42,476 nucleotides of DNA. It comes from Escherichia phage forsur. The notes beneath the pieces were generated by a model. It did not search any database. It was not told where the DNA came from and was given only the letters and a program-made list of their open reading frames with translations. The DNA is taken from sequence record MN850617.1, one strand, 5' to 3'. How positions within the stretch are numbered: the first letter of the stretch is position 1; each line of letters begins with the position of its first letter. The translations under genes were made by a program, and so were the position numbers. Positions 1 to 42,476 of the stretch are shown here, piece by piece.

Positions 1-1
1 C

Positions 2-487
2 CGTATCATCTCCATGCTGTTGGAGAAGTTCCCGCAGGTTCACGTAGTGTGTGCCGAGGGCAACCACGATATGGCCAGCTCAATCTGGATGCGAGAGCTG
101 CTGCATGTACTGTACGCCGACGAGCCGCGTGTCACTGTTGACCGCAGCCCTGACCCGTACTACTGCTATGAGCATGGCGAGACGGCACTGTTCTTCCACC
201 ATGGTCACAAGCGTAAGGCTGAGCAACTGGAGACTGTGCTGGTTGCGAAGTTCCGCGAAGTGTATGGCCGAACCAAACATGCGTATGCACACGTTGGCCA
301 CCTGCATCACAAGAAGGTGCTGGAGTCTGCCGTCATGATTGTCGAGCAGCACCAGACGCTGGCAGCGAAAGATGCCTATGCTTCTCGTGGTGGTTGGCTG
401 AGCGAGCGCAGCGCGAGCGTGATTACTTACCACGCCCGGTACGGTGAGGTCGCACGATTCACCATTAGCCCGGAGATGTTGGAGTGA
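2..487 (+). CDS. C-terminal part of a calcineurin-like metallophosphoesterase. The gene is split by the window boundary; the N-terminal part is at 41839..42476
   Basis: The frame is open from position 2. GNHD, FHHGH and GHLHH metal-ligand motifs are present. It joins in frame with the ORF running off the right edge (..VAIRAQ-R-RIISMLLEKF..). Confidence 0.8.
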   Translation, partial: RIISMLLEKFPQVHVVCAEGNHDMASSIWMRELLHVLYADEPRVTVDRSPDPYYCYEHGETALFFHHGHKRKAEQLETVLVAKFREVYGRTKHAYAHVGHLHHKKVLESAVMIVEQHQTLAAKDAYASRGGWLSERSASVITYHARYGEVARFTISPEMLE

Positions 488-708
488 GTAGAACCCTGTA
501 CCAAGAAGATGTGGTGCAGCTCAAAGATGACGGCCTCTCGATAGACTGGGAGGCCAACACGCAGGTCGAGCTGTACAAAGATGGCACCGTCTGTATCTCG
601 CAGGAAGGGGAGCAGGTGTGGGTGCCGTGGGCATATGTCAAAGATATTATCTTCGCTCTTGAGGAAGCACACGATGCACATGAAAGACACCGTAGTAGTA
701 GACCTTGA
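484..708 (+). CDS. hypothetical protein (74 aa)
   Basis: ORF-track ORF. GTG start overlaps the upstream stop, with GGAG adjacent. No recognisable motif. Confidence 0.45.
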   Translation: MSRTLYQEDVVQLKDDGLSIDWEANTQVELYKDGTVCISQEGEQVWVPWAYVKDIIFALEEAHDAHERHRSSRP

Positions 709-1177
709 CGGCACACTGGCTGATGGCCGTTGGCGTCTGCACCTGCTGCCTCCACCGGAGCGTCGGCACCTTGATGAAGCGTGGGCCGAGTTCAACTTGG
801 CTGGCGCTGACGACCCAGCGTTTCAGGACACGATTGATATTGTGAACGCACTGGCCCTCACGTATCGCATTATCATCCTGACCGGACGCGGAGCCGTGGC
901 CCGTGAAGTAACCGAGCAGTGGCTCGATGACAATGGTGTGGTGTACGACAAGCTCATCATGCGTGAGATTGGCGACTGCCGCAAAGACACTGAGATGAAG
1001 CGTGCAGCGCTGGAAGACATTGGCATTGAGAATATTGTCTGTGCCTTTGATGACCTGCCGCACATCGTGGACTTCATGCGAAGCCTAGGCATTACCGTGT
1101 ATGAAGTTACCCGGTACGAGGACAACCATGAGTACGTCCACGCCAATGCGAAATACGATGGAGATAAAGATGCCTAA
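674..1177 (+). CDS. HAD-superfamily phosphatase (nucleotidase / polynucleotide-phosphatase-like)
   Basis: Start trimmed to ATG 674 (GAGGAA 7 nt upstream). VVVDLDGTL DxDxT nucleophile motif, then ILTGR and FDD motifs typical of the HAD fold. Confidence 0.7.
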   Translation: MHMKDTVVVDLDGTLADGRWRLHLLPPPERRHLDEAWAEFNLAGADDPAFQDTIDIVNALALTYRIIILTGRGAVAREVTEQWLDDNGVVYDKLIMREIGDCRKDTEMKRAALEDIGIENIVCAFDDLPHIVDFMRSLGITVYEVTRYEDNHEYVHANAKYDGDKDA

Positions 1178-1882: not shown

Positions 1883-1890
1883 GAGATACG

Positions 1891-7102: not shown

Positions 7103-7114
7103 TTTGGAGATTAC

Positions 7115-8347
7115 ATGTCTGGTGAATACCAACCTACTGCCGCACCCGCTCCCCAAAACGTACCCGCTGGCCCGACCTATTCTCCCTCTGGTCACGGCGG
7201 TAATGATTATGGTGGAAGCCCACAGGTGGTACAGAACCCAGCGCTCGGACGCTTAGGCACGCCGATTGAACTGCCGCGAGGTGGTGCAACTCCGCAGCCG
7301 CAACAGCCGTTCGGTCAACAGCCGGGCCTGATTCCAAATCAGGAGTACAACCCGTATGCCCAACCGCAGCAGGGAAACCCAAGCCCTTACGCACCCGTAC
7401 CTCAGCAGAACCCGTATGGTGCTCCGCAACCGCAAAGCCCGTTTGCGGCACCACCTATTCCGATTAATGGGTATCCGCAACAGGGCTACACGCCTCCGGG
7501 CCAAGCGGCTCCGGCACAGCAGCCGGGCTTAGCACCGAACAACCCTGCGTATGGCTTCAACCCGTATGGGCAGCAGCCTCAGCAGCAGCAGCCGCAACAG
7601 CAGGCACCTCAGCAGCCGCAGCAGCCTTTCCAGCAGTTGCAGCCGCAGCCGGGCCAGCCGCCTCAGCAGTTCCAGAATCCGAACCTAACGGCAGAGAATC
7701 TGGCAAAGCAGGAAGGTGGACTGACCGCTGACCAAGTGGCTCAGATTTTCCCGGATGAAACCAGTCGTGCTGTGTTCCAAGGTATGGACACCATCGCCCG
7801 TGGCCAGAACATCGACCTGCTTGCAGCGTTCGGTTCTGCATACGAGCGTCGTGACCCTACTCTGGTGAATGAGCGCTATCTGGCGCAGTTCGACCCACAG
7901 ACTGTATCCATCCTCAAAGGTCAATTCGGCGCACTGGTTGCCGCTGGTCAGCAGCGCGATGCTGCAATCGAACAGCAGGTTTACCAGATGGCTGGTGGCC
8001 AAGAGCGTTGGGGTCTGGCAGTGCAGGCATTCAATACCGCTGCCGACAAAGGCACGATTGATGCTGTAGTAGCGGCTGTGAACTCCGGCGACCCTAATCA
8101 GGTACGTCTGGCAGTGAACACCATTCTCCAGTTTGCTGGTTCCCAAGGGAATATGATTCAGCGTTCTGGACAAAGTTTGACGCCTAATGGTGGCGGTCAA
8201 GCACCTCGTGACGTTATGACTAACGAGGCATTCCGTCAGCATCTTGGCTGGCTTGAGCAGGCGCATCCTGTTGGTTCCCCGGAATACAACAAGCATTACG
8301 CCGTACTGGTAGAGCAGCGCCGTCAGGCCAAAGCTCAAGGTTACTAA
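7115..8347 (+). CDS. scaffolding protein with a long N-terminal P/Q/N/Y-rich low-complexity region (410 aa)
   Basis: Lies between the portal and major capsid genes, as T7 gp9 does. The C-terminal half is helical and Ala/Gln-rich. Confidence 0.7.
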   Translation: MSGEYQPTAAPAPQNVPAGPTYSPSGHGGNDYGGSPQVVQNPALGRLGTPIELPRGGATPQPQQPFGQQPGLIPNQEYNPYAQPQQGNPSPYAPVPQQNPYGAPQPQSPFAAPPIPINGYPQQGYTPPGQAAPAQQPGLAPNNPAYGFNPYGQQPQQQQPQQQAPQQPQQPFQQLQPQPGQPPQQFQNPNLTAENLAKQEGGLTADQVAQIFPDETSRAVFQGMDTIARGQNIDLLAAFGSAYERRDPTLVNERYLAQFDPQTVSILKGQFGALVAAGQQRDAAIEQQVYQMAGGQERWGLAVQAFNTAADKGTIDAVVAAVNSGDPNQVRLAVNTILQFAGSQGNMIQRSGQSLTPNGGGQAPRDVMTNEAFRQHLGWLEQAHPVGSPEYNKHYAVLVEQRRQAKAQGY

Positions 8348-19000: not shown

Positions 19001-19161
19001 CGGGTGCAGCTACCAGCGCTGCTGGCGGCGTGCTGACTGGCGATACCGAGCAGGCAGTGTCCGGCGCTCGTAAAGCGGCAGGTAACATCATCCAAGCTAT
19101 CCCACTCATCTCAATCGTGCCGGGCGTCCGAGCACTCAACGAAGCAGTTAAGGGTGAATAA
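16054..19161 (+). CDS. internal virion (core/ejection) protein C, T7 gp16 analogue (1035 aa)
   Basis: Largest gene of the internal-protein trio. ATGA overlap with the upstream gene. Hydrophobic Ala/Gly-rich segments. Confidence 0.78.
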   Translation: MITQESLDKFMAPKQGANAPTLVIPAPVKAETLSTPLQDATRQGAVEQFDKMQELEATPIATALSASVKNWDTTQLFDAALNKPVFQADPNFHPNEALQNVQFPVTEDDRTFLFKSKSMDEFNWRTQQLQEMRERTQLAHTAPVMNAVLQFADPLYLATDLLSMGAGTALKLGRLGTAAVGAASTAATMTAVGNEARPVSQNEIIFAAALHGAATTAFYRPAAAPARRLDELSPEEFAAEMQRRNGIDPNNPPQFDPNNAMSPLAMSLGFGRRGAMETDEVPESIRAAAQRGLDLARRGEQTNPKRPFLEWSLFKSFSQHSDEASALAGRLLDDPLNPNMTSAAAIQRETQARFGVLLNQYEDTLRNALTTDGWSNLRRFRDPVGYRRAQQEFEAAVRLELDKRMIDNNFRGANPNVAAAADRLGEYSRAVGRELERKGMVEPGFVEKNPYYYPRRMNVTKIEQAEQLLGKKPFMKQMTTAVQRGIGTDRPTANVIAHAMVERARRKGYGIDNSGMIINKEGRDELLEIIENSKGLDEAAKARASALLRESGSDAGRPSMLKSRINIDMMHQLGPNLQVRDLFDDSITSMMDAYNRRITGRLALHEAGLGTDAERAAAREALAKSIKDGTARRQALEQYDNIMAYYQGAPVGEEMPQFMRQLSALTQATGLAASGLWQLVEYGTMMQRFGAVNTFRAMMRTIPEARALFKQMRVTTKEGRQLALDAEEALTAAVASDIRMRPIMQHYDDMFSADKSPWVMRLEHARDATMFINMQKYIHFHQTRTNAALVMQTLRKAAEGDAKAIAAMKTYGANDALLADIRKQVAKSGTKPDAWDEGVFNRTRIVMINAMDDAIVRARVGELPAFAEFSTLGKFLFTFRRFVAATHNKTLVGTWNREGARGMATLMAYQYPLAMMATAANNVISGKAFSDPETMAPNKLASQALNYLGAIGFASEFTGVLTGQQRSFGAPGLLFLDRAYGVAGAATSAAGGVLTGDTEQAVSGARKAAGNIIQAIPLISIVPGVRALNEAVKGE

Positions 19162-21533
19162 TGGCGAACAGCTATAACACTTACGTGGCGAACGGTTCGC
19201 AGACCGCGTTCCTCGTTACGTTTGAGCAGCGCGTGTTCACACAGATTCAGGTGTACCTCAACTCCGAACTCCAAACGAGCGGGTACACCTACAACTCTGT
19301 GACCAAACAGATTGTCTTTGACACCGCCCCGCTCGCCGGGGTGATTGTCCGTTTGCAACGCTACACCTCTGAGACTCTGCTGAACAAGTTCGGACAGGAC
19401 GCTGCCTTTACGGGCAGCAACCTCGACGAGAACTTCGAGCAGATTCTGTTCAAGGCTGAGGAAACTCAGGAAGCATGGCTCGCGCCGCTTGACCGCGCCG
19501 TCCGTGTCCCGAACTCCGAAGTCTCCATCAACGCATTACCGAACGTCGCTGGCCGCCGCAACAAGGCACTGGGCTTTGACAGCAATGGCCAGCCGTTCAT
19601 GATTCCTCTGGTTGATATCCCTGACTCCGCGCTGGCGATTGCTCTGGCAATGGCTGACGGCGGTAAGTGGATTGGTACACTGGGCGGCGGTACGTTCCTC
19701 GACCGTCAGGATACCGTGTGCCTGTCAGAGTTCACCAACAACACCGGGTATGCCTCTGTCGCCGCTGCGGTACAAGCGTGCTTCGATTATGCCAAGGCTA
19801 ACCACAAGACTGTGGATGCCCGTGGTTGGGTCGGTACTGTCAACTCTACTGTCCTGATGGACGGTATTGAGGTTGTCGGCGGCACTTGGAACGGTACGGC
19901 TGATATCCGGCTGCTGGATTCCACATTCCGCGACTTCAAAGCCTCCACTGTCCGTGTCTGTTACTGGGGTGGTAAGGTTCGCATCTCTGATTATGAGTTC
20001 ACTGGTGCGCCGTCGAACTCCAAAGTAGCGAGCATCCTGTTCCAAGGTAACATCGCCGGGGGCAGCTACGTTATTGAGAACGGTATCCACCGCAATGGCA
20101 AGTTCGGTATTCTCCAGCAGGGTACTGGTGAGGCTATCGACAACGGCGTTATCCGCAACATCGCTATGATGAATATGCTGGGTGACGGCATCGAGATGAA
20201 CGTAATCAACAAGCACTATGATGGTGGCCTGCTGATTGAGAACATCTACCTCGAAGACCTCGACGGTACGACCGCTCCTATCCCTCTGTCCAACTGGGGC
20301 ATCGGTATCGGTATCGCTGGTCAAGGCCCGTTCGGTTGGGATGCTGCTGAAACGCAGTACGCCAAGAACGTGGTTGTCCGTAACGTCCATGCTCCGCGTG
20401 GTGTGCGTCAGGTTGTCCACTTCGAAGTTACCCGCGACAGCGTGTGCGAGAACGTGTTCTGTAACCCTGACCTCGCTGTGTCAACTGGTACTGGCCTGAC
20501 GGCGGCAGGTGTAATCACCTACGGCTGCAAGCGAATGACCATTGACGGCGTGGCTGGTGAGCCAATCAACACTGGCGCAACCTCTCCTAACGCGATTCGT
20601 CTCGTTATGTTGGAGTGGGGTGCGAACCAAGCAGGTGCAGGCGGTACGCCGGGCGCGGCATGTCCTTCGTTTGACATGACTGTGCGCAACGTGCAGACCC
20701 GTACCGGACGCTTCTATGCTGGCGTTGGCTCTGATGACGTGAACAACAACACGTACCATCTGGAAAACATCCACTGCCATACGATGAGTCTGTTCGGCGT
20801 GGCAACGCTGCTGAATATGACCAACGTGACCGGGGTAGTGTTCGATGCTGTAGGCGATGACTCCAGCGGCGGTACTTCATCCAACGGCCTATACCCGCGT
20901 AAGAAGACTGTTCTCAACATGGTGAACGTGAACTTCTACGGCGATGGCATGACTGAGGGTGCGCTGTACAGTAAGGCTCGCTATTCGGATATCAGTACGC
21001 TGAACTCCAACGTGCGTGCTATCCCGTACACCAACATCCAAGGTAACGTAGGCGTCATCCTGTCTCCGGTCAACCGCATGTACACGCTGCCGAATAACCT
21101 TGCAACCCTGACTGGTGGGGAGTTCCCGACTGGTAAAGAGTTCTGTGAGGGGACGGTGCTGTTTAAGACTGACGGCTCTGGTGGCAACTTCATCGTGACT
21201 GGCTTCGGCGCGTACATCCCGGATGACGGGAACAACTTCAAGGTGCGTGCTGCTGCCGCTGGCCAGACGTATCTTGAGCAGAACCTGACTCCGGCTGGTA
21301 CTCAGGCTTCCACCTCGTGGCTGTACCATAAGCCTATCTCGGCTGGTACTCGTCTACAGGTGCCGGGCGCTGGCGCTGGTGGTGCGCCCTTGACGGTTAC
21401 GGTGGTTCGTGCGCCTTATCAGGTGGACAATAACATCGGGAACCCGGTACGCATCGACATTACCCCGGCGCTCGTGACGGCTATCCCTGCTGGGACTCAG
21501 CTCGCCGCGACGTACCCGGTCACTTATATCTAA
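19161..21533 (+). CDS. tail fiber/tailspike: T7 gp17-like N-terminal adaptor plus a probable right-handed beta-helix (depolymerase-like) body (790 aa)
   Basis: The N-terminal ~150 aa align with T7 gp17 as recalled (NGSQTAFLVTFE.., VRLQRYTSETLL..NLDENFEQILFKAEE). The central region has repetitive G/N-x-x-I/V rungs (VIENGIHRNGKFGILQQG..IRNIAMMNMLGDGIEMNVI). Confidence 0.82.
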   Translation: MANSYNTYVANGSQTAFLVTFEQRVFTQIQVYLNSELQTSGYTYNSVTKQIVFDTAPLAGVIVRLQRYTSETLLNKFGQDAAFTGSNLDENFEQILFKAEETQEAWLAPLDRAVRVPNSEVSINALPNVAGRRNKALGFDSNGQPFMIPLVDIPDSALAIALAMADGGKWIGTLGGGTFLDRQDTVCLSEFTNNTGYASVAAAVQACFDYAKANHKTVDARGWVGTVNSTVLMDGIEVVGGTWNGTADIRLLDSTFRDFKASTVRVCYWGGKVRISDYEFTGAPSNSKVASILFQGNIAGGSYVIENGIHRNGKFGILQQGTGEAIDNGVIRNIAMMNMLGDGIEMNVINKHYDGGLLIENIYLEDLDGTTAPIPLSNWGIGIGIAGQGPFGWDAAETQYAKNVVVRNVHAPRGVRQVVHFEVTRDSVCENVFCNPDLAVSTGTGLTAAGVITYGCKRMTIDGVAGEPINTGATSPNAIRLVMLEWGANQAGAGGTPGAACPSFDMTVRNVQTRTGRFYAGVGSDDVNNNTYHLENIHCHTMSLFGVATLLNMTNVTGVVFDAVGDDSSGGTSSNGLYPRKKTVLNMVNVNFYGDGMTEGALYSKARYSDISTLNSNVRAIPYTNIQGNVGVILSPVNRMYTLPNNLATLTGGEFPTGKEFCEGTVLFKTDGSGGNFIVTGFGAYIPDDGNNFKVRAAAAGQTYLEQNLTPAGTQASTSWLYHKPISAGTRLQVPGAGAGGAPLTVTVVRAPYQVDNNIGNPVRIDITPALVTAIPAGTQLAATYPVTYI

Positions 21534-28607: not shown

Positions 28608-28644
28608 AAGCCATCTTGCGAGGTGGCTTTATGGCAATTCTGCC
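28608..28644 (+). repeat. intergenic stem-loop (UUGCGA loop) plus GGCAATTCTGCC box (copy 2)
   Basis: AAGCCATC-TTGCGA-GGTGGCTT. The box starts 11 nt after the loop. Confidence 0.7.
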
Positions 28645-28667
28645 CCAACAATTACGGAGTATCATCC

Positions 28668-28952
28668 ATGACCACTAAAACTGTTCTGGCCTACGTCACC
28701 AAGAAAGGCGAAGAAGTGTACGGCTATGCTGTGTCTATCGACGGCGGCCACAACTACCTGCATCACGTTCGTGAAGAAGGTGAACCGACTGACCACGATG
28801 GCATTCTGGAAACGCTGAAAGGCATCCCGCTGCCGCACGAAATCATCTGTATGCTGGCTGGCCAGACGGAAGATGACCTGCAACTGCGTCACGGCGACGA
28901 CCTGACCATTCAGGGTATCGGCAGCTTCGAAGCTGACGTAGACGACGAATAA
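28668..28952 (+). CDS. acidic early protein ending ..GSFEADVDDE (94 aa)
   Basis: Start trimmed to ATG 28668 (ACGGAG upstream). The track's start at 28623 lies inside the conserved hairpin/box element. Confidence 0.65.
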   Translation: MTTKTVLAYVTKKGEEVYGYAVSIDGGHNYLHHVREEGEPTDHDGILETLKGIPLPHEIICMLAGQTEDDLQLRHGDDLTIQGIGSFEADVDDE

Positions 28953-28963
28953 GCGTTGTCCTG

Positions 28964-29000
28964 CTGCATCCTTGCGAGGGTGCAGCGTGGCAATACTGCC
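28964..29000 (+). repeat. intergenic stem-loop (UUGCGA loop) plus GGCAATACTGCC box (copy 3)
   Basis: CTGCATCC-TTGCGA-GGGTGCAG. The box starts 11 nt after the loop. Confidence 0.7.
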
Positions 29001-29025
29001 TTATTCCAATCTGAGGATTAATCCT

Positions 29026-29106
29026 ATGTCTACACTGAAACTGGTACTGATTTCTAACATCGCTGCTGACGCTTTCGACGCTGATGACGTGGACTTCTCT
29101 GCGTGA
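29026..29106 (+). CDS. 26-aa acidic mini-ORF (MSTLKLVLISNIAADAFDADDVDFSA), resembling the C-terminal tail of the neighbouring paralogs
   Basis: TGAGGA upstream. Preceded by the same hairpin/box element as the full-length genes. Confidence 0.4.
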   Translation: MSTLKLVLISNIAADAFDADDVDFSA

Positions 29107-29112
29107 TACCTT

Positions 29113-29150
29113 ACTGCCTCGTTGCGACGGGGCAGTGCGGCAATCATGCC
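29113..29150 (+). repeat. intergenic stem-loop (UUGCGA loop) plus GGCAATCATGCC box (copy 4)
   Basis: ACTGCCTCG-TTGCGA-CGGGGCAGT. The box starts 11 nt after the loop. Confidence 0.7.
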
Positions 29151-29171
29151 CAACCTAACTGGAGATTTACC

Positions 29172-29453
29172 ATGGCTACAATCAACGTGTATTCCCTGAG
29201 CAACGGCGGTCTGGCATTCATCGCTGGTGATAAGGTAGACGAAGCGCCGTCGCTGGGCGTGACGCCGAAACCGGAGGCCAGCCGTGATGATGTTATCGCG
29301 GAAGTCAAGGGTGCGCTGGAAGACCTCGGCGGTCTGCTGTTCGTCCTGAATGGTGGCAAGCTGTCGGTTGAAAAGCTGGACGCGCTGGAACCTGTCTTTG
29401 TTGAGAGCTTCGAAGCTGACAACATCGACCTCGCTGCTTTCGCTGACGCCTAA
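29172..29453 (+). CDS. acidic early protein, paralog A (93 aa, MATINVY.. ..ESFEADNIDLAAFADA)
   Basis: Start trimmed to ATG 29172 (TGGAGA upstream). Clear paralog of 29791..30099. Confidence 0.75.
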   Translation: MATINVYSLSNGGLAFIAGDKVDEAPSLGVTPKPEASRDDVIAEVKGALEDLGGLLFVLNGGKLSVEKLDALEPVFVESFEADNIDLAAFADA

Positions 29454-29491
29454 GCATAACCCGAAACCCACAACCAAAGAGGACAATCAAC

Positions 29492-29722
29492 ATGGCTAAG
29501 TTTGAACTGGTACGCTTCATTGACCCGAACGATGGCGAAGAAACCTTCGCGCAGTTTGCTGATGACCGCTCGCTGGTCGCCATCTACAACACTGAGCGCA
29601 CGGCGCGGCGCTGGTTCAAGGAAGACGACGACATGGACAGCATCGAAGAAGCGCTGGCTATGCCGGGCTACGCTGAGGCTGTCGAGGCAGCACTGAAAGG
29701 CGAAGTCGTAGCGACTGCGTGA
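29492..29722 (+). CDS. acidic early protein (76 aa)
   Basis: AAGAGGA upstream. Confidence 0.65.
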   Translation: MAKFELVRFIDPNDGEETFAQFADDRSLVAIYNTERTARRWFKEDDDMDSIEEALAMPGYAEAVEAALKGEVVATA

Positions 29723-29729
29723 TTTCTGT

Positions 29730-29768
29730 CAGCCCATCCATAGCGGTGGGCTGTAGGGCAATCATGCC
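29730..29768 (+). repeat. intergenic stem-loop (CAUAGC loop) plus GGCAATCATGCC box (copy 5)
   Basis: CAGCCCATC-CATAGC-GGTGGGCTG. The box starts 12 nt after the loop. Confidence 0.65.
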
Positions 29769-29790
29769 ACAACAACTGAGGGTATACACC

Positions 29791-30099
29791 ATGGCAACTA
29801 TCAACGTCTACAAAACTATCACTGGCTCACTGGTATTCGTAGTGGGTGAACTGCGTGAAGATGCACCAATCGTTGGCGTGTCTCTGCGTGAAGGGGCAAC
29901 CGAGGCTGACGCCATCGCTGAGATTCGTCAGAACATTGAGAACCTCGGCGGCCTGTTCTTCCTGCTGCAAGGTGGCAGCCTGAACCTCGCTAAGTTGCAG
30001 GAGCATGAGCCTGTACTCGTGACCAGCTTCGAAGCGGAAGATGTAGACGCCAGTGACTTCGAAGCCAGCCGCGCTGACGAAGAAGAAGCAGGCGAGTAA
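29791..30099 (+). CDS. acidic early protein, paralog B (102 aa, MATINVY.. ..TSFEAEDVDASDFEASRADEEEAGE)
   Basis: Start trimmed to ATG 29791 (TGAGGG upstream). Aligns along its full length with 29172..29453. Confidence 0.75.
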   Translation: MATINVYKTITGSLVFVVGELREDAPIVGVSLREGATEADAIAEIRQNIENLGGLFFLLQGGSLNLAKLQEHEPVLVTSFEAEDVDASDFEASRADEEEAGE

Positions 30100-36176: not shown

Positions 36177-36340
36177 AGGGGCGCAGCTATCGCCGTTGCT
36201 CTTGCGGCGGCTGCCTGCTGGTTGAGCAGGTCAAGGGCAAAGCCACTGGCAAACCGCTGGTGATTTACGAGTGTGAAAAGTGTGGAGCTAAGCAGTATGG
36301 AAGACAAGGTGTATCGAGCAGCACCCTTAACCCAGCGTGA
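36173..36340 (+). CDS. possible zinc-ribbon protein (55 aa)
   Basis: GTG in a GTGA overlap. CSCGGC..(x20)..CEKCG four-Cys pattern. Below the track cutoff. Overlaps the next ORF by 44 nt. Confidence 0.35.
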   Translation: MKGRSYRRCSCGGCLLVEQVKGKATGKPLVIYECEKCGAKQYGRQGVSSSTLNPA

Positions 36341-36488
36341 ACAAGACACCATCCGGGCGCAGTACCGGAAGGGTGATGCGTTCCGTGGGGAAGAAGCATT
36401 GGGTGAGCGCTACAATGTGGCACCCGAAGATATCGTGGCTGTGGTTAACTTCACCTACCGTAAGGGGAAACAGAAGCATGATAAGTAA
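36297..36488 (+). CDS. hypothetical protein (63 aa)
   Basis: Start trimmed to ATG 36297 (GGAG about 10 nt upstream). Confidence 0.5.
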   Translation: MEDKVYRAAPLTQREQDTIRAQYRKGDAFRGEEALGERYNVAPEDIVAVVNFTYRKGKQKHDK

Positions 36489-37161
36489 TGCCGAAGCTAA
36501 GCGCGTGTGGGCAGAAGACATCTGCCGTCTGCTGCAATCCGAAGAACTGAACTTCGTGGTTGCCGGGGGAGGGGCAAGGGATACCGCGTTGGGTGTTGAG
36601 CCGAAGGACTACGACATTGTGGTCTTTGGTTGGGGTGGTGATGTGAGCCGTGTGGCTGGCCGACTGGACTGGCTGGACTCCAGACTGGAGGACTATGCCA
36701 AGCAGCACGAGCTGTCGTATGAATACATGCCGAGCTATCACGATGCAGCAGAGGGTGGCGACTTCGGCTCCCGGCTGTGGGGTGTGTATAAGATTGGCCC
36801 GGTCGATGTGATTATCAGTAAGTGTGGGTGCTGGTCACAGGTACTGAACGAGTTCGACTTCAACCTGAACCAGTTCTACTTCCCGTCCAGTATCCCGCGT
36901 TACTCCGGCCAGTACAGCCGTGACCCCGGCGAGTTCATGGCGTATCCGTATGAGCCGAACCTCACTGCCGAAGATGTGCAGTGGTTCCCGGCGCTGGCCA
37001 GCCTGGTAGAAAGCTATGATGACCTGCTGACTCTCCGTGTCTGCCGACCGGATGCCAGCCTGAGTCGTGTGGCTTACATGCTGGAGAAGCACGAGAAGTA
37101 TCTGCCAGCCATTGAAGCATACGTTAATCGTATGCCCGACCACTTAGGTGGCAAAGCATAG
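36478..37161 (+). CDS. Pol-beta-superfamily nucleotidyltransferase, CCA-adding/poly(A)-polymerase head-domain-like (227 aa)
   Basis: Start trimmed to ATG 36478. VAGGGARDTALGVEPKDYDIVV matches the GGxxRDxxLGxxxxDxD signature. Confidence 0.65.
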   Translation: MISNAEAKRVWAEDICRLLQSEELNFVVAGGGARDTALGVEPKDYDIVVFGWGGDVSRVAGRLDWLDSRLEDYAKQHELSYEYMPSYHDAAEGGDFGSRLWGVYKIGPVDVIISKCGCWSQVLNEFDFNLNQFYFPSSIPRYSGQYSRDPGEFMAYPYEPNLTAEDVQWFPALASLVESYDDLLTLRVCRPDASLSRVAYMLEKHEKYLPAIEAYVNRMPDHLGGKA

Positions 37162-37171: not shown

Positions 37172-39637
37172 ATGGCTATTCGAGCACAGATTATCGACGT
37201 TGAAACTGAGAACCATGAGTGGTATGGGGAGCTGGCATCACCTCGCTGCCCTGACAACTACGTGGTGATGCAGGGACAGCGCGACTGTGTGCTGACCAAG
37301 GATGGCTGGGAGTTCTACAAGCGTGAGGAATATCGGTACGCATCCCGTGAGGATTGGCTGGCGAACAAGAGCCTGCACCTCCACCCGGATACGAACATAC
37401 TGGTTGCACACAACGCGCCGTATGAACTGAGCTGGTGGTTCGAGCATTACGGTGACGAGTTCAAGGCATTCCTCTTACGAGGTGGCCGCGTATTCTGTAC
37501 CGCTTATGCTGAGTATCTGCTGACACACCAGCAATCCCAGTACCCATCCTTGAACGAGACAGCACCGAAGTATGGTGGTACTCACAAGGTGGATGCAGTC
37601 AAGGCAATGTGGGAGTCAGGTTATCTGACCAGCCAGATTGACGCTGAGCTGCTGAGCGAGTATCTGTCCGGGCCGTCCGGCGATATCGAGAACACGACCA
37701 AGCTGTTCGTTGGTCAGTGGGCAGAGCTGACGAAGCAGGGCATGTTGCAGATGGCACTGACCCGGTTCGAAGGTATGCTCATGTGGGCGTACATGATGCA
37801 CTCCGGTCTGCACGTTGACCGTGAGGTAGCAGAGCGTAACCGCCGTGAGTTGCAGGATTCAATCAGTGGGTTAACCGAGACACTGATGGGCTACCTGCCT
37901 GCCGACATGCCGAGTGAAGCGCGTGAGCAATTCAAGTTCACGTCTGCATATCACATGAGCGCGTTCGTGTTCGGCGGCGTGATGAAGTACAAGGCGCGGG
38001 TCGAGCGCCGGGATGCCGATGGCAATCTCATTTACGTGAAGGTGGATGCACCACTGTTCAAGCGTGGCAAGGACAAGTGGCTCAAGCATACCAGCGAGTG
38101 CGTGTGGGATGATGAGACTGGGTTGTGGTATGACCCGGTTGAGAAGGTACACCAGACTATCTACTCCAGCGGCAAGCACAAAGGCGAGCCGAAGTTTGAG
38201 AAGCTGGCGACCGATGAGGTGGACACTAAGTGGGGTGAGGTACTGTTCCGGCTGCCCGGTCTGCTGCGTGTGCAGGACAGACGGGCGCGGGAGATTGCCG
38301 ACAACCTTGAGTGGGAAGACCCGAAGCGTCCGGGTGAATATCTCCGGCGCACTGGTGACTGGGTAGGTAAGCGCAAGCTGGCTGACGGTTCTCCTGTATT
38401 CAGTACGGCGGGTGAGGTGCTGGACATTCTGGCAGCTCGTAAGATTCCCGGCGTCGTGGAGATTGCTGACCGGGCCAAGGCGCAGAAAGACCTAGGCACC
38501 TACTACCTCAGCGAGACGTTTGATGAGGATGGCAACGTGACTGGCCAGTCGGGGATGATGCAGTTCATCCAGCCGGACAGTATCGTACACCACACCATCA
38601 ACATGACCGCGACTGAGACGACACGCTTGTCGTCGCAGCGACCGAACAGCCAGAACCTGCCGCGTAAAGGTACGAGTAAAGTTAAGCAGATGTTCACCTC
38701 CCGCTTTGGCGAAGGTGGCCGCATCGTTGAGGCTGACTACTCGGCACTGGAAGTGGTGGGGTTGGCCGGGTTCAGTAAGGACAAGAACCTGATTCGTGCA
38801 TTGCTCGATGGTATCGACATGCACTGTATGCGATTGTCTGCTCAACTCAATGAGCCATACGAGGACGTGCTTAAGAAGTGCAAGGATGAGTCCCATCCTG
38901 ACCATGCACGATACAGTCAGATGCGTACTGACATCAAGCCCAAGGCGTTCTCCTATCAGTATGGTGCAACAGCGCGGGGCATTGCCTACTCGACTGGTTG
39001 CTCGGAGGAAGAAGCACAGGCGTTCATCGACAACGAGAAGGGTCTGTTCCCGGAAGTTGAAGAATGGTTCGACGCTGTAATCTTCCCCGCCGTTGAGCGT
39101 AGTGGACAGAGCAACGTGTTCAAGGAACAAGATGAGAACGGACGGTGGCAGGTGTATCGCCGTGGTCACTTCCGCTCGCCGGGTGGAACTTGTTATTCAT
39201 TCCGTCAGTACGAGAAATGGAACAAGGCGGCGCGTGCTTATCTGATGGAATACAAACCAACCCAAATGCGTAACTATCCTATTCAGGGTGAGACAGCGTT
39301 TTGGGTACAGGGAATTGGTGGGCTGCTGTTCCGCTGGCTGCTGGCCAATGACTTCTTTGGTGGGCGTGTGGTTCCCATCAACCAAGTGCATGACGCATTC
39401 TATTTCGACGTGGCACCTGACTGCCCTCACGAGTTCTTCGTTGGACTCAAGGCAATCATGGAATCCATACCGGAATACTACAACCACATCTGGCCTGAAT
39501 ATAACCTGACAGTTCCGTTTCCGGCAGAGGTAGAAGCTGGGCCAAGCATGTACGAAAAGCATCACGTAGAGACGACAGCCGAAGAAGTGCTGGAGTTCAA
39601 ACGTAACTTCCTGACGAGTAAGGGTATTAGCATATGA
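37172..39637 (+). CDS. family-A DNA polymerase with 3'-5' exonuclease domain (821 aa)
   Basis: Start trimmed to ATG 37172 (GGGGGA upstream). Exo I IIDVETEN, motif A EADYSALEVV, motif B RTDIKPKAFSYQYG, motif C NQVHDAF. Confidence 0.93.
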   Translation: MAIRAQIIDVETENHEWYGELASPRCPDNYVVMQGQRDCVLTKDGWEFYKREEYRYASREDWLANKSLHLHPDTNILVAHNAPYELSWWFEHYGDEFKAFLLRGGRVFCTAYAEYLLTHQQSQYPSLNETAPKYGGTHKVDAVKAMWESGYLTSQIDAELLSEYLSGPSGDIENTTKLFVGQWAELTKQGMLQMALTRFEGMLMWAYMMHSGLHVDREVAERNRRELQDSISGLTETLMGYLPADMPSEAREQFKFTSAYHMSAFVFGGVMKYKARVERRDADGNLIYVKVDAPLFKRGKDKWLKHTSECVWDDETGLWYDPVEKVHQTIYSSGKHKGEPKFEKLATDEVDTKWGEVLFRLPGLLRVQDRRAREIADNLEWEDPKRPGEYLRRTGDWVGKRKLADGSPVFSTAGEVLDILAARKIPGVVEIADRAKAQKDLGTYYLSETFDEDGNVTGQSGMMQFIQPDSIVHHTINMTATETTRLSSQRPNSQNLPRKGTSKVKQMFTSRFGEGGRIVEADYSALEVVGLAGFSKDKNLIRALLDGIDMHCMRLSAQLNEPYEDVLKKCKDESHPDHARYSQMRTDIKPKAFSYQYGATARGIAYSTGCSEEEAQAFIDNEKGLFPEVEEWFDAVIFPAVERSGQSNVFKEQDENGRWQVYRRGHFRSPGGTCYSFRQYEKWNKAARAYLMEYKPTQMRNYPIQGETAFWVQGIGGLLFRWLLANDFFGGRVVPINQVHDAFYFDVAPDCPHEFFVGLKAIMESIPEYYNHIWPEYNLTVPFPAEVEAGPSMYEKHHVETTAEEVLEFKRNFLTSKGISI

Positions 39638-40521
39638 CCGCATCAGTATTGAACCGCATGAACTCCATCGTCGAACAGTATGTTGACGAGGAAGAACTTG
39701 ACTTTAACGAAGCCACGTCTGGTGGTGGTAAGCTCCTGCCGGAAGGTAAGGCGCTGGCCCGTCTGGTTGGCTACGTTGAGGTGGGGCCGCACGCCACTAA
39801 GCAGGCACCGGACAAACCGCCAGTCAATAAGTTCTTCCTCCAGTTCGCACTGTGGGGCAAGGCCAAGAACGGCGAGACTTACCACGAAGTTGTCAATGGT
39901 AAGATGGTGCCGGGCAAAGTTCGCACGCAGTTCATCGCTGTGAAGAAAGACCTGAACAGTAAGTCCGGCGCTTACAAATTGTTCAAGCGCATGAACCCGG
40001 ACAAGACTGCGAAGCACTTCGCGCAGTTGCTGAACCACACGTTCATCGTTCCGATTACCCACAACGAATCTGGTGAGGGTGATAACAAGAAGGTGTATGC
40101 GAACATCGACCTTGAGAACATCATGCTCGCTGTTGACCCGGTAACTGACCAGCCGTACCCGGTGCCGGAAGTCGAAGACGAGACGCTGTTCAAGCTGTTC
40201 CTGTGGAACCGTCCGACCAAGGAAGACTGGGAATCGCTGTACATCGACGGCAAGAACGACGATGGTAAATCCAAGAACTGGATTCAGGACAAGCTGCTTG
40301 AGTCTCCTGAGTTCCCCGGCTCACCGCTCGACCTGCTGCTCAATGGTGCTGGCGCTGGCTCTGCCATCGCTGAGCTGCCGGAGCTGGGTGATGCAGGCCA
40401 GCCGGAGGAAGTGAAGGAAGTCAAGCAGGAAGTCGCTGAGCTTCCGGTGAAGGGTGAAGCCGACAGCAAGAAAGAGCCGGACGTGACTGGCGAAGCTGAC
40501 TTCGGTTTGCCTAGCCTGTAA
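39634..40521 (+). CDS. hypothetical protein with an acidic C-terminal tail; ssDNA-binding protein candidate (295 aa)
   Basis: ATGA coupling to the polymerase. The last ~70 aa are Glu/Asp/Pro-rich and end in ..EADFGLPSL. Confidence 0.6.
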   Translation: MTASVLNRMNSIVEQYVDEEELDFNEATSGGGKLLPEGKALARLVGYVEVGPHATKQAPDKPPVNKFFLQFALWGKAKNGETYHEVVNGKMVPGKVRTQFIAVKKDLNSKSGAYKLFKRMNPDKTAKHFAQLLNHTFIVPITHNESGEGDNKKVYANIDLENIMLAVDPVTDQPYPVPEVEDETLFKLFLWNRPTKEDWESLYIDGKNDDGKSKNWIQDKLLESPEFPGSPLDLLLNGAGAGSAIAELPELGDAGQPEEVKEVKQEVAELPVKGEADSKKEPDVTGEADFGLPSL

Positions 40522-40557: not shown

Positions 40558-41532
40558 ATGAGTAGACTTCAACGCTTACTCCACAATGCAGAGGAACTTG
40601 ATGACCAGTTTGATGGTTACGTGTCTGGTCGTATCTTGCTGTGCGATGCTGACTCCACGGTCTACGTCGCGGCAGCAACCACGAAGAACATCGAGACAGC
40701 GAAGACACGATTCTGTTCCGGGGTACTGACCGCCAAGTTCCTCGCCAATGCTCAGTCAGTTCGTATCGAGTTGACCGCTGCGGAGTGTACGAAAGCTGGA
40801 CGGTACAAGCTGCGTGGGGCCAAGCTGTACCAAGGCAACCGAGACAAAGACCGCAAGCCCGGTCTGGTCGAACCGTTGCGTAAAGCAATTGGCCGGAACA
40901 TGTTCAACGTCCCGGATGGTGAGGACTGGTACGTCCACCTGAACTTTGAGTTCGAGGCAGACGATACCTTAATCATGGATGCGTGGACGATTGGCATTAA
41001 CGATGCAGTAATCTACAGCGCGGATAAAGACCTGCGTTGTTGGCCGGGCAGATTCCTTGACCCGTATGACAACAAGGTGCTGGAGCCGTGCGTTGGTATT
41101 GGCAGGCTGTGGTGGCATGAAACGAAAAGCGACAAGTCGCTGGTCGGCCATGGGCCTATCTTCTTTTGGGCGCAGATGTTGATGGGCGACACCGCCGACA
41201 ACATTGCTGGCGTGAAGAAGGTTGGTAAGCAGACTGCCTACGACATGCTGGTTGATTATCAAGAGATTGATGATGAATCAGTGGTTGCGGAATTGGTGCT
41301 GCGTGAGTACATGCAGCGTGACCAGAACCCGTGGCCGGAGGCAGTGGCGCTGTGGCTGTACCGCACGCCGACCTACTCATTCGCAGCCCACTTGAACACG
41401 CTGACCTTGAGCAAGGAGCTGCGTGTCTGGCTGCATAAGAAACTGGGTGAGGAATGGTATGCGGAAAGTGACTGGCGCGACTCTGTTGCAGCTTCGGAAG
41501 AATGCGATGGGTTGCAACTGCCCACTCTGTGA
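40558..41532 (+). CDS. 5'-3' exonuclease (FEN/T7 gp6-like, 324 aa)
   Basis: PIN-like acidic clusters (LCDADS, ADDTLI, SADKDL) and the H3TH motif MGDTADNIAGVKKVGKQTAYDML. Confidence 0.88.
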   Translation: MSRLQRLLHNAEELDDQFDGYVSGRILLCDADSTVYVAAATTKNIETAKTRFCSGVLTAKFLANAQSVRIELTAAECTKAGRYKLRGAKLYQGNRDKDRKPGLVEPLRKAIGRNMFNVPDGEDWYVHLNFEFEADDTLIMDAWTIGINDAVIYSADKDLRCWPGRFLDPYDNKVLEPCVGIGRLWWHETKSDKSLVGHGPIFFWAQMLMGDTADNIAGVKKVGKQTAYDMLVDYQEIDDESVVAELVLREYMQRDQNPWPEAVALWLYRTPTYSFAAHLNTLTLSKELRVWLHKKLGEEWYAESDWRDSVAASEECDGLQLPTL

Positions 41533-41839
41533 TGAGCCGATGGTTGACCTCAAGCTCATGGTGGTTGACCACGACCATGTGACTGGAGAGATTCGCGGTG
41601 TTATCTGCCGCTGGTGTAATGCTCAGCTCGGTAAGGTGGAGAACTCTGCCAACCGAGCAAAGCGCCAGCGCACAGTGGATGACTGGTTGGATAGCGCCAT
41701 CGAGTGGCGACGTAAGCAGCACACTGGTCTGATGTATCCGACACATAAGACAGAGGCTGAGAAGAAAGCGGCAGCAGCCGACAGACGTAAAAAGGCAGCA
41801 GCAGCTAAAGCGCGTGCCATAATCACTAAGGGGAAATGA
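41459..41839 (+). CDS. recombination endonuclease VII (126 aa)
   Basis: Start trimmed to ATG 41459 (GAGGA upstream). CNCPLC..VDHDHVTGEIRGVICRWCNAQLG signature. Overlaps the exonuclease gene by 74 nt. Confidence 0.85.
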   Translation: MRKVTGATLLQLRKNAMGCNCPLCDEPMVDLKLMVVDHDHVTGEIRGVICRWCNAQLGKVENSANRAKRQRTVDDWLDSAIEWRRKQHTGLMYPTHKTEAEKKAAAADRRKKAAAAKARAIITKGK

Positions 41840-42476
41840 TGACGAAGTTAAGTAACGCACAGCTCAAGGCAGATATCGCTGAGGGTCTTGGCACCACTGA
41901 GATTGCTGAGAAGCATGACATGACCACGGGTGCCATTCGATACCGGAAGCGCCAGCTTGCCAAGAGCGGCTGGAGTCCTGAGCACGACATGACCAAGGAA
42001 GTGCCGGAGCCGTATGCGGTTAAGGGTACGTCCACGCTGTATGATAAGGACGGCAACGTGGTCATGCAGTGGGTGAAGACTGCGCTCGACCGTGAGCAGG
42101 AGCTGGCCCTGCTGCAAGAGGCAGTGGATGCAATCAGCGAAACCATTACCCCGGAAGTGGCCCGGCCATTCAGCGGTGGCCCGGCACCTGCTGAGCTGCT
42201 GAACCTGTTCATCCTCACTGACTACCACCTCGGTATGCTGGCGTGGTCAGAGGAAACTGGTGATGACTGGGATATGAAGATTGCCGAAGACCTGCTGGTC
42301 AAGTGGTTCGCGGCAGCCATTGCCAGTGCGCCACCAGCACAGGTTGCTATCTTCGGACAGCTCGGTGACTTCCTACACTGGGATGGGTTAGATGCAGTGA
42401 CGCCATCGAGTGGGCATGTGCTGGATGCTGACACGCGATTCCAGAAGCTGGTGCGTGTGGCTATCCGGGCGCAGCG
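41839..42476 (+). CDS. N-terminal part of the HTH-containing calcineurin-like metallophosphoesterase (continues at 2..487; about 374 aa in total)
   Basis: AAGGGG 5 nt upstream of ATG 41839 (alternative ATG 41836). N-terminal HTH-like GLGTTEIAEKHDMTTGAIRYRKRQL, then LTDYHLG (DxH) and GQLGDFLHWD (GD) motifs. No stop before the window end. Confidence 0.8.
   Translation, partial: MTKLSNAQLKADIAEGLGTTEIAEKHDMTTGAIRYRKRQLAKSGWSPEHDMTKEVPEPYAVKGTSTLYDKDGNVVMQWVKTALDREQELALLQEAVDAISETITPEVARPFSGGPAPAELLNLFILTDYHLGMLAWSEETGDDWDMKIAEDLLVKWFAAAIASAPPAQVAIFGQLGDFLHWDGLDAVTPSSGHVLDADTRFQKLVRVAIRAQ

What the first reader, a model, noticed from the sequence alone, without database searches (positions are those of the whole stretch)
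41839..42476. Metallophosphoesterase fused to an N-terminal helix-turn-helix domain
Seen in sequence: the first ~50 aa look like an HTH (GLGTTEIAEKHDMTTGAIRYRKRQLAKSG). The remainder, continuing at 2..487, carries all five calcineurin-like phosphoesterase motifs (DxH, GD, GNHD, H, GHxH).

Inference: it may be a DNA-tethered nuclease or phosphatase (Mre11/SbcD-like end processing), or a phosphodiesterase that degrades cyclic-nucleotide immune signals.
Basis: partly seen in the sequence, partly recalled or inferred. Interest (0 to 1): 0.5.

Follow-up and report, generated by a model that had tools for sequence, protein, structure and literature searches.

The report
Phage HTH-fused metallophosphoesterase, function untested
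This is a real gene of a T7-like E. coli phage that joins a small DNA-binding domain to a two-metal phosphoesterase; it belongs to a very common, already catalogued phage family whose usual database label ("DNA repair exonuclease") has no specific support and whose function nobody has tested.

The parts
41839..42476 (+). 5' part of the HTH-MPE gene (codons 1-212 plus 2 nt of codon 213)
   Evidence: Reading frame and translation. Contiguous orthologue glasur_29.
1..487 (+). 3' part of the same gene (last base of codon 213, codons 214-374, stop TGA at 485-487)
   Evidence: Joined translation. 373/374 identity to glasur_29 with no gap across the junction. Full-length phrog_704 match.
41828..41833 (+). 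Shine-Dalgarno-like AAGGGG, 5 nt upstream of ATG 41839. The start overlaps the endo VII stop (ATGA), which implies translational coupling and no promoter of its own.
   Evidence: Sequence read directly.
41854..41973 (+). Basic three-helix HTH domain (aa 6-45; recognition helix AIRYRKRQLAKSG)
   Evidence: AF2 helices 6-14, 19-25 and 30-42. Homologs hit GerE, HTH_23, HTH_8, HTH_1 and Sigma70_r4_2 in register. Net charge is +3 here and averages +4.2 over 58 homologs.
41974..42192 (+). Family-specific connector (aa 46-118): the conserved SPEHDMT motif, a beta-hairpin (VKGTSTLYDKDGNVVMQWVK, aa 61-80) and a helix (85-99)
   Evidence: AF2 strands 59-68 and 74-83, helix 85-99. G63, S65, W78 and K80 are invariant in 58 homologs. 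No match to any Pfam model.
42217..42234 (+). MPE motif I (TDYHLG; D128 and H130 are metal ligands)
   Evidence: Invariant in alignments A2 and A4. Coordinates.
42364..42387 (+). MPE motif II (GDFLHWDG; D177 is the bridging ligand; H180 and D182 are nearly invariant)
59..70 (+). MPE motif III (GNHD; N234 is a ligand, H235 the catalytic His)
   Evidence: Invariant.
197..208 (+). MPE motif IV (HHGH; H280 invariant)
296..310 (+). MPE motif V (GHLHH; H313 and H315)
371..397 (+). Family-specific conserved loop DAYASRGGW (aa 337-345), predicted with low confidence; probably part of the substrate pocket
   Evidence: Invariant D337, A340, R342, G343, G344 and W345. pLDDT below 50 for residues 335-347.
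41540..41839 (+). Upstream neighbour: recombination endonuclease VII. Start taken from the glasur annotation; the longest ORF begins at 41423.
   Evidence: Pfam PF02945, E = 3.5e-14. phrog_423. glasur_28.
40558..41532 (+). 5'-3' (FEN-type) exonuclease, two genes upstream
   Evidence: phrog_107, E = 6.8e-59. Pfam 5_3_exonuc.
674..1177 (+). Downstream neighbour (after the small ORF 484-708): HAD-type polynucleotide 3'-phosphatase domain protein with no kinase domain
   Evidence: Pfam PF25109 HAD_PNKP, E = 2.9e-15. phrog_415. glasur_31 coordinates.

Best explanation
The gene encodes a stand-alone, phage-specific, two-module enzyme of the PHROG 704 family.

Shown:
- A basic N-terminal three-helix HTH.
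- A conserved beta-hairpin/helix connector.
- An acidic C-terminal binuclear metallophosphoesterase domain with every metal ligand (D128, H130, D177, N234, H280, H313, H315) and the catalytic His235 intact.
- The gene is translationally coupled to endonuclease VII inside the DNA-metabolism block of a Bonnellvirus genome.
- No Rad50/SbcC-type partner is encoded.

Inferred mechanism: the HTH supplies the DNA affinity that the acidic catalytic domain lacks and docks the enzyme on duplex DNA. The dimetal centre then hydrolyses DNA phosphodiester bonds (endo- or exonucleolytic) or terminal phosphates. The enzyme would serve replication, recombination or concatemer processing, or host-DNA breakdown, in the way other partner-less phage MPEs (T5 A1, mycobacteriophage A10ZJ24 gp48) are reported to damage host DNA. 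Substrate and biological role are not shown.
For: - Architecture and catalytic competence.
- The HTH is family-wide.
- Charge split: the HTH is always basic (mean +4.2) and the MPE domain always acidic (mean -6.1) in 58 homologs.
- Context in this phage: FEN exonuclease, endo VII, then the HTH-MPE, then a HAD 3'-phosphatase and a dNTP pyrophosphohydrolase-like gene.
- In other lineages the gene repeatedly sits just downstream of structure-specific nucleases of at least five unrelated folds (endo VII, NinG/Rap, VRR-NUC, HNH, PD-(D/E)XK).
- Motif II is GDxxH, which I recall being the Mre11 pattern (from memory, not tested).
- The gene is retained across whole lytic genera with compact genomes, 2,041 phage records in all, which fits a replication-linked role better than a variable accessory one.
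- Precedents for partner-less phage MPE DNases: PMC12287305 and bioRxiv 10.64898/2026.04.02.716235.
Against: - No biochemical data exist for any family member.
- The fold matches are generic: MJ0936, Rv0805, LpxH, Ap4A hydrolase, Vps29 and polymerase B-subunits score about as well as Mre11.
- There is no specific sequence relationship to any known nuclease MPE.
- The catalytic domain is acidic, and the invariant residues in its specific loops are mostly acidic or aromatic (E139, D196, D198, D337, W136, W345), which is not typical of a DNA-binding cleft.
- In many siphoviruses the gene is not in a DNA-metabolism block. It lies next to lysis or terminase genes or in moron-like islands.
- An HTH can equally serve autoregulation.
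Confidence: 0.45

Rival explanations
1. Counter-defence phosphodiesterase. The MPE domain destroys a nucleotide-derived immune signal (cyclic oligonucleotide, cNMP, or a cADPR-type or other messenger), and the fused HTH acts as an Aca-like autorepressor, as in HTH-fused anti-CRISPRs (the anti-CRISPR comparison is from my own knowledge).
For: - The catalytic domain is acidic, with aromatic and acidic invariant loop residues suited to a small polar ligand.
- The genomic position is variable and island-like in siphoviruses, for example next to a superinfection-immunity gene and Ant in a Jersey-like phage.
- No partner is needed.
Against: [quoted passage not shown] This is indirect, covers one signal only, and I could not see the primary gel.
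- In this phage the gene has no promoter of its own to autoregulate, because its start overlaps the endo VII stop.
- The gene is held as a core gene across whole genera rather than patchily.
- Known signal-degrading phage enzymes use other folds (Acb1 is a 2H phosphoesterase, Apyc1 an MBL-fold enzyme; from my own knowledge).
- The gene is not mentioned among escape loci in the defence-escaper study.
- No PADLOC relationship.
Confidence: 0.15
2. Nucleic-acid end-healing enzyme. It would act as a 2',3'-cyclic phosphodiesterase or 3'-phosphatase on damaged DNA or RNA ends, working with the neighbouring HAD 3'-phosphatase. The comparison is with the MPE module of Clostridium thermocellum Pnkp (from my own knowledge).
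For: - In Bonnellvirus-like loci a HAD PNKP-type phosphatase lies at +1 or +2 in 10 loci.
- MPEs include phosphomonoesterases and cyclic phosphodiesterases.
- The HTH would deliver the enzyme to nucleic acid.
Against: - The association with the HAD phosphatase is confined to one lineage (10 of 128 loci).
- I did not look for an RNA or DNA ligase or a kinase domain next to the gene in most contexts, and none appeared among the annotated neighbours.
- No sequence similarity to λ-phosphatase or Pnkp-type MPEs: hhalign against NinI gives probability 0.4%.
Confidence: 0.12
3. Host-takeover protein phosphatase or RNA-polymerase-associated factor. The enzyme would be a functional analogue of λ NinI (possibly a NinH+NinI-like fusion), or its sigma-region-4-like HTH would dock on host RNA polymerase rather than on DNA.
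For: - In lambdoid phages and prophages the gene occupies the nin-region slot between NinG and Q, where λ has ninH (HTH) and ninI (MPE phosphatase).
- λ NinH aligns in register with the HTH (hhalign E = 5.8e-4).
- Sigma70_r4 and r4_2 models hit 14+5 of 125 members.
- T5 A1, a putative metallophosphatase, is reported to interact with RNA polymerase.
Against: - Bona fide NinI-like phosphatases (33-35% identical to λ NinI) lie about 1 kb upstream of the HTH-MPE match in three loci (L019, L020, L057), so the two are not interchangeable. No NinH homolog occurs in any locus.
- hhalign against NinI shows no relationship.
- Motif II lacks the PPP-family GDxVDRG arginine (read from the sequence; the motif definition is from my own knowledge).
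- The NinH similarity is weak (probability 29%) and generic for HTHs.
Confidence: 0.08

Closest known systems
PHROG 704 / GenBank 'phosphoesterase' or 'DNA repair exonuclease' of phages (e.g. glasur_29 QHR67418.1; Citrobacter phage Stevie gp37)
   Same: Same family and same full-length architecture. 99.7% identity to glasur_29. End-to-end HMM match at E = 8.5e-145.
   Different: Nothing structural. The names in databases are transferred annotations (phosphoesterase, DNA repair exonuclease, Ser/Thr phosphatase, recombination endonuclease subunit) and contradict each other. I found no experimental work.
Mre11 / SbcD nucleases (including phage T4 gp47-type, phrog_100)
   Different: No specific sequence similarity. 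E. coli SbcD maps to phrog_100, not 704. No capping domain or Rad50-binding helices. No SbcC/Rad50 ATPase in the genome or in 128 related loci. This family has an N-terminal HTH instead.
Phage T5 A1 (putative metallophosphatase, phrog_1745)
   Same: A partner-less phage MPE-type protein. It is reported as necessary and sufficient for host DNA degradation and also contacts the transcription machinery. It shares an extended motif III (ExNHDxAxSxWL).
   Different: 556 aa and a different PHROG. Similarity is limited to 19 residues (hhalign probability 20%). No HTH-hairpin N-terminal module. The authors describe it as mostly confined to Demerecviridae.
Mycobacteriophage cluster A MPEs (A10ZJ24 gp48, Bxb1 gp47, D29 gp66; phrog_221)
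   Same: Small stand-alone phage MPEs. gp48 is reported to disrupt host genomic DNA and so silence defence genes. Bxb1 gp47 acts on DNA transactions as a recombination directionality factor.
   Different: About 255 aa and no HTH. hhalign shows only motif III-V similarity (probability 6.5%). Different PHROG.
λ NinI Ser/Thr phosphatase with the adjacent NinH Fis-like HTH protein
   Same: HTH and MPE functions encoded side by side in the same nin-region slot upstream of Q that the HTH-MPE occupies in lambdoid relatives. NinH is a DNA-binding and DNA-bending HTH protein (PMC7166090).
   Different: Separate genes in λ. No detectable homology of the MPE domains. NinI-like genes lie about 1 kb upstream of the HTH-MPE match in three loci, and NinH homologs are absent from all loci.
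Class III cyclic-nucleotide phosphodiesterases (Rv0805/CpdA) and MJ0936
   Different: Scores are no better than for a dozen unrelated MPE subfamilies (TM 0.31-0.37). No sequence-level relationship. These enzymes have no HTH.

Membership tests
Calcineurin-like metallophosphoesterase superfamily | Five motifs DxH / GD / GNH(D/E) / H / GHxH carrying the metal ligands | tested here: met
   All five are present. D128, H130, D177, N234, H235, H280 and H315 are invariant in 125 distant representatives.
Calcineurin-like metallophosphoesterase superfamily | Alpha/beta sandwich MPE fold | tested here: met
Calcineurin-like metallophosphoesterase superfamily | Match to Pfam PF00149 at or above the gathering score | tested here: inconclusive
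   The window protein gets no hit at E < 1. 23 of 58 close homologs and 27 of 125 distant homologs hit PF00149, with a best E of 2.7e-5.
PHROG 704 | Full-length match to the family HMM | tested here: met
   Residues 2-373 against profile 2-389/390, E = 8.5e-145.
Mre11/SbcD nuclease family | Specific sequence similarity to SbcD or Mre11 | tested here: not met
   No PDB sequence hit with either the single sequence or the profile. hhalign against E. coli SbcD aligns only 15 residues around GNHD (probability 1.8%). SbcD maps to phrog_100.
Mre11/SbcD nuclease family | Cognate SbcC/Rad50 SMC-like ATPase encoded alongside | tested here: not met
   All ORFs of 500 aa or more in the window are polymerases or structural or packaging proteins. 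No recurrent large ATPase appears near 128 family loci; the most common neighbour family is present in 21 loci.
Mre11/SbcD nuclease family | C-terminal capping domain and Rad50-binding helices | tested here: not met
   The protein ends 58 residues after motif V. The AF2 secondary structure shows only the MPE core after residue 119.
Mre11/SbcD nuclease family | Mn-dependent exo- or endonuclease activity on DNA | not testable with these tools
   Needs biochemistry.
Simple tri-helical HTH DNA-binding domains (Fis/LuxR/sigma-r4-like) | Three-helix bundle with a helix-turn-helix and a basic recognition helix | tested here: met
   AF2 helices 6-14, 19-25 and 30-42. Homologs pass the gathering score for GerE (26.5 bits against 23.5) and HTH_23 (26.6 against 24.6) in register. 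Net positive charge in all 58 homologs. DNA binding itself was not tested.
λ NinI-type PPP Ser/Thr phosphatases (phrog_246) | Sequence membership, and interchangeability in the nin-region slot | tested here: not met
   hhalign probability 0.4%. NinI maps to phrog_246. NinI-like genes lie about 1 kb upstream of the HTH-MPE match in L019, L020 and L057.
T5 A1 family (phrog_1745) | Sequence membership | tested here: not met
   hhalign aligns 19 residues at motif III only (probability 20%). Different PHROG.
Mycobacteriophage cluster A MPE (phrog_221) | Sequence membership | tested here: not met
   hhalign probability 6.5%, motifs III-V only. Different PHROG.
Known phage enzymes that degrade immune nucleotide signals (Acb1, Apyc1) | 2H-phosphoesterase or MBL fold; degradation of cyclic nucleotide signals | tested here: not met
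   The fold here is MPE, not 2H or MBL (the fold assignments of Acb1 and Apyc1 are from my own knowledge). The activity is not testable here. The only indirect data are the screen of phages carrying the family.
Anti-phage defence system components (PADLOC) | Match to a defence-system protein model | tested here: not met
   No hit for the window protein at E < 1.

The most novel reading that the evidence does not exclude
The family could be a widespread phage counter-defence or host-takeover enzyme with a built-in HTH. One version is a phosphodiesterase that destroys a nucleotide immune signal other than 3'3'-cGAMP and represses its own expression as Aca-type regulators do. Another is a sequence- or structure-targeted, Rad50-independent DNase that cripples host DNA (and so host defence gene expression) while the HTH directs it away from, or to specific sites on, phage DNA. 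Either would give a function to a gene present in about 4% of sequenced phages, including the Webervirus, Drexlerviridae and Jersey-like phages, which I understand to be used therapeutically.
Probability: 0.15. Interest if true: 0.7.

Novelty: new variant of a known kind. Interest (0 to 1): 0.35.

Why it matters
The family is one of the more common uncharacterised enzyme families in tailed phages. It occurs in 2,041 of 50,697 deposited genomes and forms 4,857 clusters at 50% identity. It is held across whole genera of E. coli, Klebsiella and Salmonella phages, some of which I understand to be used in therapy. Annotation pipelines label it "DNA repair exonuclease", a name that implies SbcD/Mre11 orthology; every test of that orthology here failed. 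Knowing whether it is a partner-less, HTH-targeted DNase, an end-healing enzyme or a signal-degrading phosphodiesterase would correct thousands of annotations. It would also show how an MPE can be directed to its substrate by a fused DNA-binding domain rather than by a Rad50-type clamp. It is not a new kind of system, and the instance in this window is an ordinary orthologue of an already deposited gene.

Tried and rejected
1. Direct Pfam and NCBIfam scans of the window protein gave no significant hit. The domains are only detectable through homologs, PHROGs and structure.
2. PDB sequence searches with the single sequence and with the profile gave nothing meaningful.
The afdb50 fold library was unavailable.
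5. The NinH+NinI "Rosetta-stone" fusion or replacement idea is rejected. The positional analogy is real (NinB..NinG..[gene]..Q). However, the NinH similarity is generic, NinI shows no homology, NinI-like genes sit near the gene in three loci, and NinH is absent from all loci.
6. Search for a conserved partner gene: neighbourhood clustering of 85 and then 138 loci found none.
7. PADLOC defence models gave no hit.
8. Searching with the N-terminal module alone (aa 1-115) returned only four short partial fragments and was uninformative.
9. An operator-like 14-bp palindrome (CAGCTTCGAAGCTG, three copies) turned out to encode the shared C-terminal SFEA(D/E) motif of three paralogous early ORFs, so it is not a binding site.
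10. Literature searches for the family, for the PHROG number, and for escape mutants or anti-defence roles found no characterisation.
Full report
**What is there**

The window is a circularly permuted, complete ~42.5-kb genome of a T7/phiKMV-like podovirus of the genus Bonnellvirus. All long ORFs are on the + strand, and they include a family A DNA polymerase and a single-subunit RNA polymerase. The flagged region is 98.4% identical in DNA to Escherichia phage glasur.

The flagged ORF starts at ATG 41839. Its start overlaps the TGA of the upstream endonuclease VII gene, and an AAGGGG ribosome-binding site lies 5 nt upstream. The ORF runs off the window end and resumes at base 1, with a stop at 485-487, for 374 codons.

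The junction is genuine. In glasur the gene is a contiguous 1125-nt CDS (glasur_29, "phosphoesterase"). The joined protein is 373/374 identical to it, with no gap at the junction. It also matches PHROG 704 over its whole length (E = 8.5e-145).

**Checking the two domains**

Three lines of evidence support it.
- AlphaFold2, run on the 99%-identical P0001 with 58 homologs (mean pLDDT 78.8), predicts three N-terminal helices at 6-14, 19-25 and 30-42.
- Homologs about 60% identical exceed Pfam gathering scores for GerE and HTH_23 at residues 10-45. In the alignment these columns are exactly the window's GLGTTEIAEKHDMTTGAIRYRKRQLAKSG segment.
- Among 125 distant representatives, HTH models hit many members: HTH_1 in 30, HTH_50 in 17, HTH_8 in 15, Sigma70_r4_2 in 14, HTH_23 in 14.

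The HTH is the least conserved segment (mean column identity 0.38-0.49, against 0.65-0.93 in the core). It is always basic.

*Connector.* Between the two domains lies a family-specific connector: the SPEHDMT motif, a beta-hairpin and a helix. It is highly conserved and matches nothing known.

Both parts of the observation are therefore confirmed. The only correction is that motifs I and II lie before the window end rather than in 2..487.

**How common is it, and is it characterised?**

The family is very large. It occurs in 2,041 of 50,697 deposited phage genomes, of which 1,946 match at least 80% of the query's length. An exhaustive search finds 4,857 clusters at 50% identity with E <= 1e-3. 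There are 53 loci in bacterial genomes, and these share phage genes and so appear to be prophages.

Carriers include Bonnellvirus, Jersey-like Salmonella phages, Dhillonvirus, Drexlerviridae (T1-like), Klebsiella Webervirus, and Vibrio, Campylobacter and Rhodobacter phages.

Database names disagree: phosphoesterase, DNA repair exonuclease, Ser/Thr phosphatase, recombination endonuclease subunit. I found no paper that characterises any member.

**Is it an SbcD/Mre11-type nuclease?**

Only at the superfamily level.
- Sequence and profile searches of the PDB find nothing.
- hhalign against E. coli SbcD aligns 15 residues around GNHD, and SbcD falls in a different PHROG.
- The protein ends 58 residues after motif V, so there is no capping or Rad50-binding region.
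- No SbcC/Rad50-like ATPase is encoded in this genome. Every ORF of 500 aa or more is a polymerase or a structural or packaging protein.
- Clustering the neighbours of 128 family loci shows no conserved partner. The commonest neighbour family occurs in 21 loci.

The structural matches are flat. Foldseek ranks the cyclic-nucleotide phosphodiesterase Rv0805, acid sphingomyelinase, the Pol delta B-subunit and Mre11 within one order of magnitude of each other. Fold alone therefore cannot choose a substrate.

**Relation to characterised phage MPEs**

λ NinI (phrog_246), Bxb1 gp47 with A10ZJ24 gp48 (phrog_221), and T5 A1 (phrog_1745) are all separate families. Profile comparison recovers only catalytic-motif similarity.

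They still matter as precedents. A10ZJ24 gp48 is reported to disrupt host genomic DNA (PMC12287305). T5 A1, a putative metallophosphatase, is reported to be necessary and sufficient for host DNA degradation without other viral factors (bioRxiv 10.64898/2026.04.02.716235). Partner-less phage MPE DNases therefore have support in the literature, although in-vitro nuclease activity of purified A1 is still untested.

**Genomic context**

In this phage the order is: DNA polymerase, an unknown 295-aa protein, FEN-type exonuclease, endonuclease VII, the HTH-MPE, a small ORF, a HAD 3'-phosphatase, a dNTP-pyrophosphohydrolase-like protein, a Q-like zinc-ribbon protein, and RNA polymerase. The gene thus sits in the DNA-metabolism block and is translationally coupled to a junction resolvase.

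Elsewhere the context differs by lineage.
- In lambdoid phages and prophages it lies between NinG/Rap and Q.
- In Tlsvirus it is a stand-alone unit before the lysis genes.
- In Dhillonvirus it lies between the lysis genes and terminase.
- In a Jersey-like phage it sits in an opposite-strand island inside the tail module, with a superinfection-immunity gene, an HNH endonuclease and Ant.

Pooled upstream neighbours from dereplicated loci fall into two groups: about 10 lysis genes, and nucleases of at least five unrelated folds.

**The λ analogy, tested and dropped**

λ has ninH (a Fis-like HTH protein, PMC7166090) immediately followed by ninI (an MPE phosphatase) in the same slot upstream of Q. 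That suggested a fusion or a replacement. The idea did not hold up.
- NinH aligns in register, but only weakly (probability 29%).
- NinI shows no relationship.
- Genuine NinI-like genes lie about 1 kb upstream of the HTH-MPE match in three loci, and no NinH homolog occurs in any locus.

**The cyclic-nucleotide hypothesis**

There is no positive evidence beyond the generic fold. SECphi18 (51% identity) and SECphi27 (42% identity) both encode full-length members. Both were among the 32 E. coli phages whose infected lysates were screened for 3'3'-cGAMP binding or degradation, and the paper reports no hit for them (PMC11722364). This evidence is indirect, covers only one signal, and I could not see the primary gel.

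**Most likely mechanism**

Shown: a basic HTH (mean net charge +4.2) joined to an acidic (mean -6.1), catalytically intact dimetal phosphoesterase. No partner is encoded. In this phage the gene is co-expressed with DNA-processing nucleases.

Inferred: the HTH provides the DNA affinity and positions the catalytic domain on DNA, where it cleaves phosphodiester bonds or removes terminal phosphates. This would happen during replication, recombination or packaging, or during host-DNA breakdown. I put this at about 0.45.

Rivals:
- a signal-degrading phosphodiesterase with an Aca-like HTH (0.15);
- an end-healing cyclic phosphodiesterase or 3'-phosphatase (0.12);
- a protein phosphatase or RNA-polymerase-docking factor (0.08).

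The remaining probability is unassigned.

Two facts weaken the leading reading: the invariant loop residues around the active site are acidic or aromatic, and the gene occupies moron-like positions in siphoviruses.

**Verdict**

This is a real, correctly read feature. The instance in this window is an ordinary orthologue of an already deposited gene. The family is catalogued but uncharacterised, and it differs from every studied MPE in having a fused HTH-hairpin module and no Rad50-type partner. I rate it a new variant of a known kind, of moderate interest (0.35).

Noticed in passing
window 1-42476 (junction 42476/1): The window is a circular permutation of a complete Bonnellvirus genome, cut in the middle of a gene. 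It is 42,476 bp, against 42,507 bp for glasur. No terminal repeat is retained at the ends.
   Followed up: yes
window 1101-1706 (+): A 201-aa protein with a dATP/dGTP diphosphohydrolase N-terminal domain (PF18909, E = 4.4e-34), the domain known from Z-genome (2-aminoadenine) phages. Related PHROGs carry conflicting labels, including "endolysin; inhibits RNA polymerase". glasur annotates it as a putative phosphodiesterase.
   Followed up: no
window 674-1177 (+): A PNKP-type HAD 3'-phosphatase domain with no kinase domain, although it is annotated "polynucleotide 5' kinase/3' phosphatase" in relatives. It lies at +1 or +2 of the HTH-MPE in 10 Bonnellvirus-like loci.
   Followed up: partly
window 1735-2124 (+): A small zinc-ribbon protein matching "anti-termination protein Q-like" (phrog_6060, E = 6e-13). 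Its stop overlaps the start of the phage RNA polymerase gene (2124-4559).
   Followed up: no
window 28623-30099 (+): Three tandem small early ORFs (109, 116 and 126 aa) are paralogs that share a C-terminal SFEA(D/E) acidic motif. The motif is encoded by a 14-bp perfect palindrome, CAGCTTCGAAGCTG. The window has 4 matches at up to 2 mismatches, against 0.18 expected by chance; the fourth is at 6832.
   Followed up: partly
window 39634-40521 (+): A 295-aa protein of unknown function (phrog_862) overlaps the end of the DNA polymerase gene. It has a long acidic C-terminal tail ending ...GEADFGLPSL, which recalls the acidic tails of T7 gp2.5-type single-strand DNA-binding proteins. This was not tested.
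   Followed up: no
window 36337-37161 (+): A nucleotidyltransferase-family protein (phrog_1614, E = 4e-42) lies directly upstream of the DNA polymerase and is conserved in Bonnellvirus-like loci.
   Followed up: no
window 19161-21533 (+): The tail-fibre or tailspike protein has a C-terminal region matching a "colanic acid degradation" family (phrog_6117, E = 2.5e-228). This suggests a capsule or colanic-acid depolymerase.
   Followed up: no
window 7033-7642 (+), inside the scaffolding gene 7115-8347: Imperfect CAGCAGCCG-type repeats encode a Gln/Pro-rich stretch within the head scaffolding protein.
   Followed up: no
L019 62-859, L057 121-858, L020 4089-4883: Lambdoid metagenomic phages carry a λ NinI-like Ser/Thr phosphatase (33-35% identity) about 1 kb upstream of the HTH-MPE match, so two different MPEs sit in one nin region. 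In L020 my crude gene calls did not recover the HTH-MPE ORF as a cluster member.
   Followed up: partly
Phage records (phiJLA23 NC_047740; Roseobacter phage RDJL Phi 1; Klebsiella phage KpV79): Some phages hold only fragments or split versions of the family: the N-terminal 87-103 aa alone in phiJLA23, 309-aa and 117-aa pieces in RDJL Phi 1, and a 153-aa piece in KpV79. These suggest occasional decay or modular separation of the N-terminal module and the MPE core.
   Followed up: no
L003 (Citrobacter phage Stevie) 664-10487: The Stevie record annotates a 22-bp repeat recurring in intergenic regions around the early genes, including just upstream of the block that holds its HTH-MPE gene (gp37). 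These could be promoters or operators. I did not test any link to the HTH.
   Followed up: no
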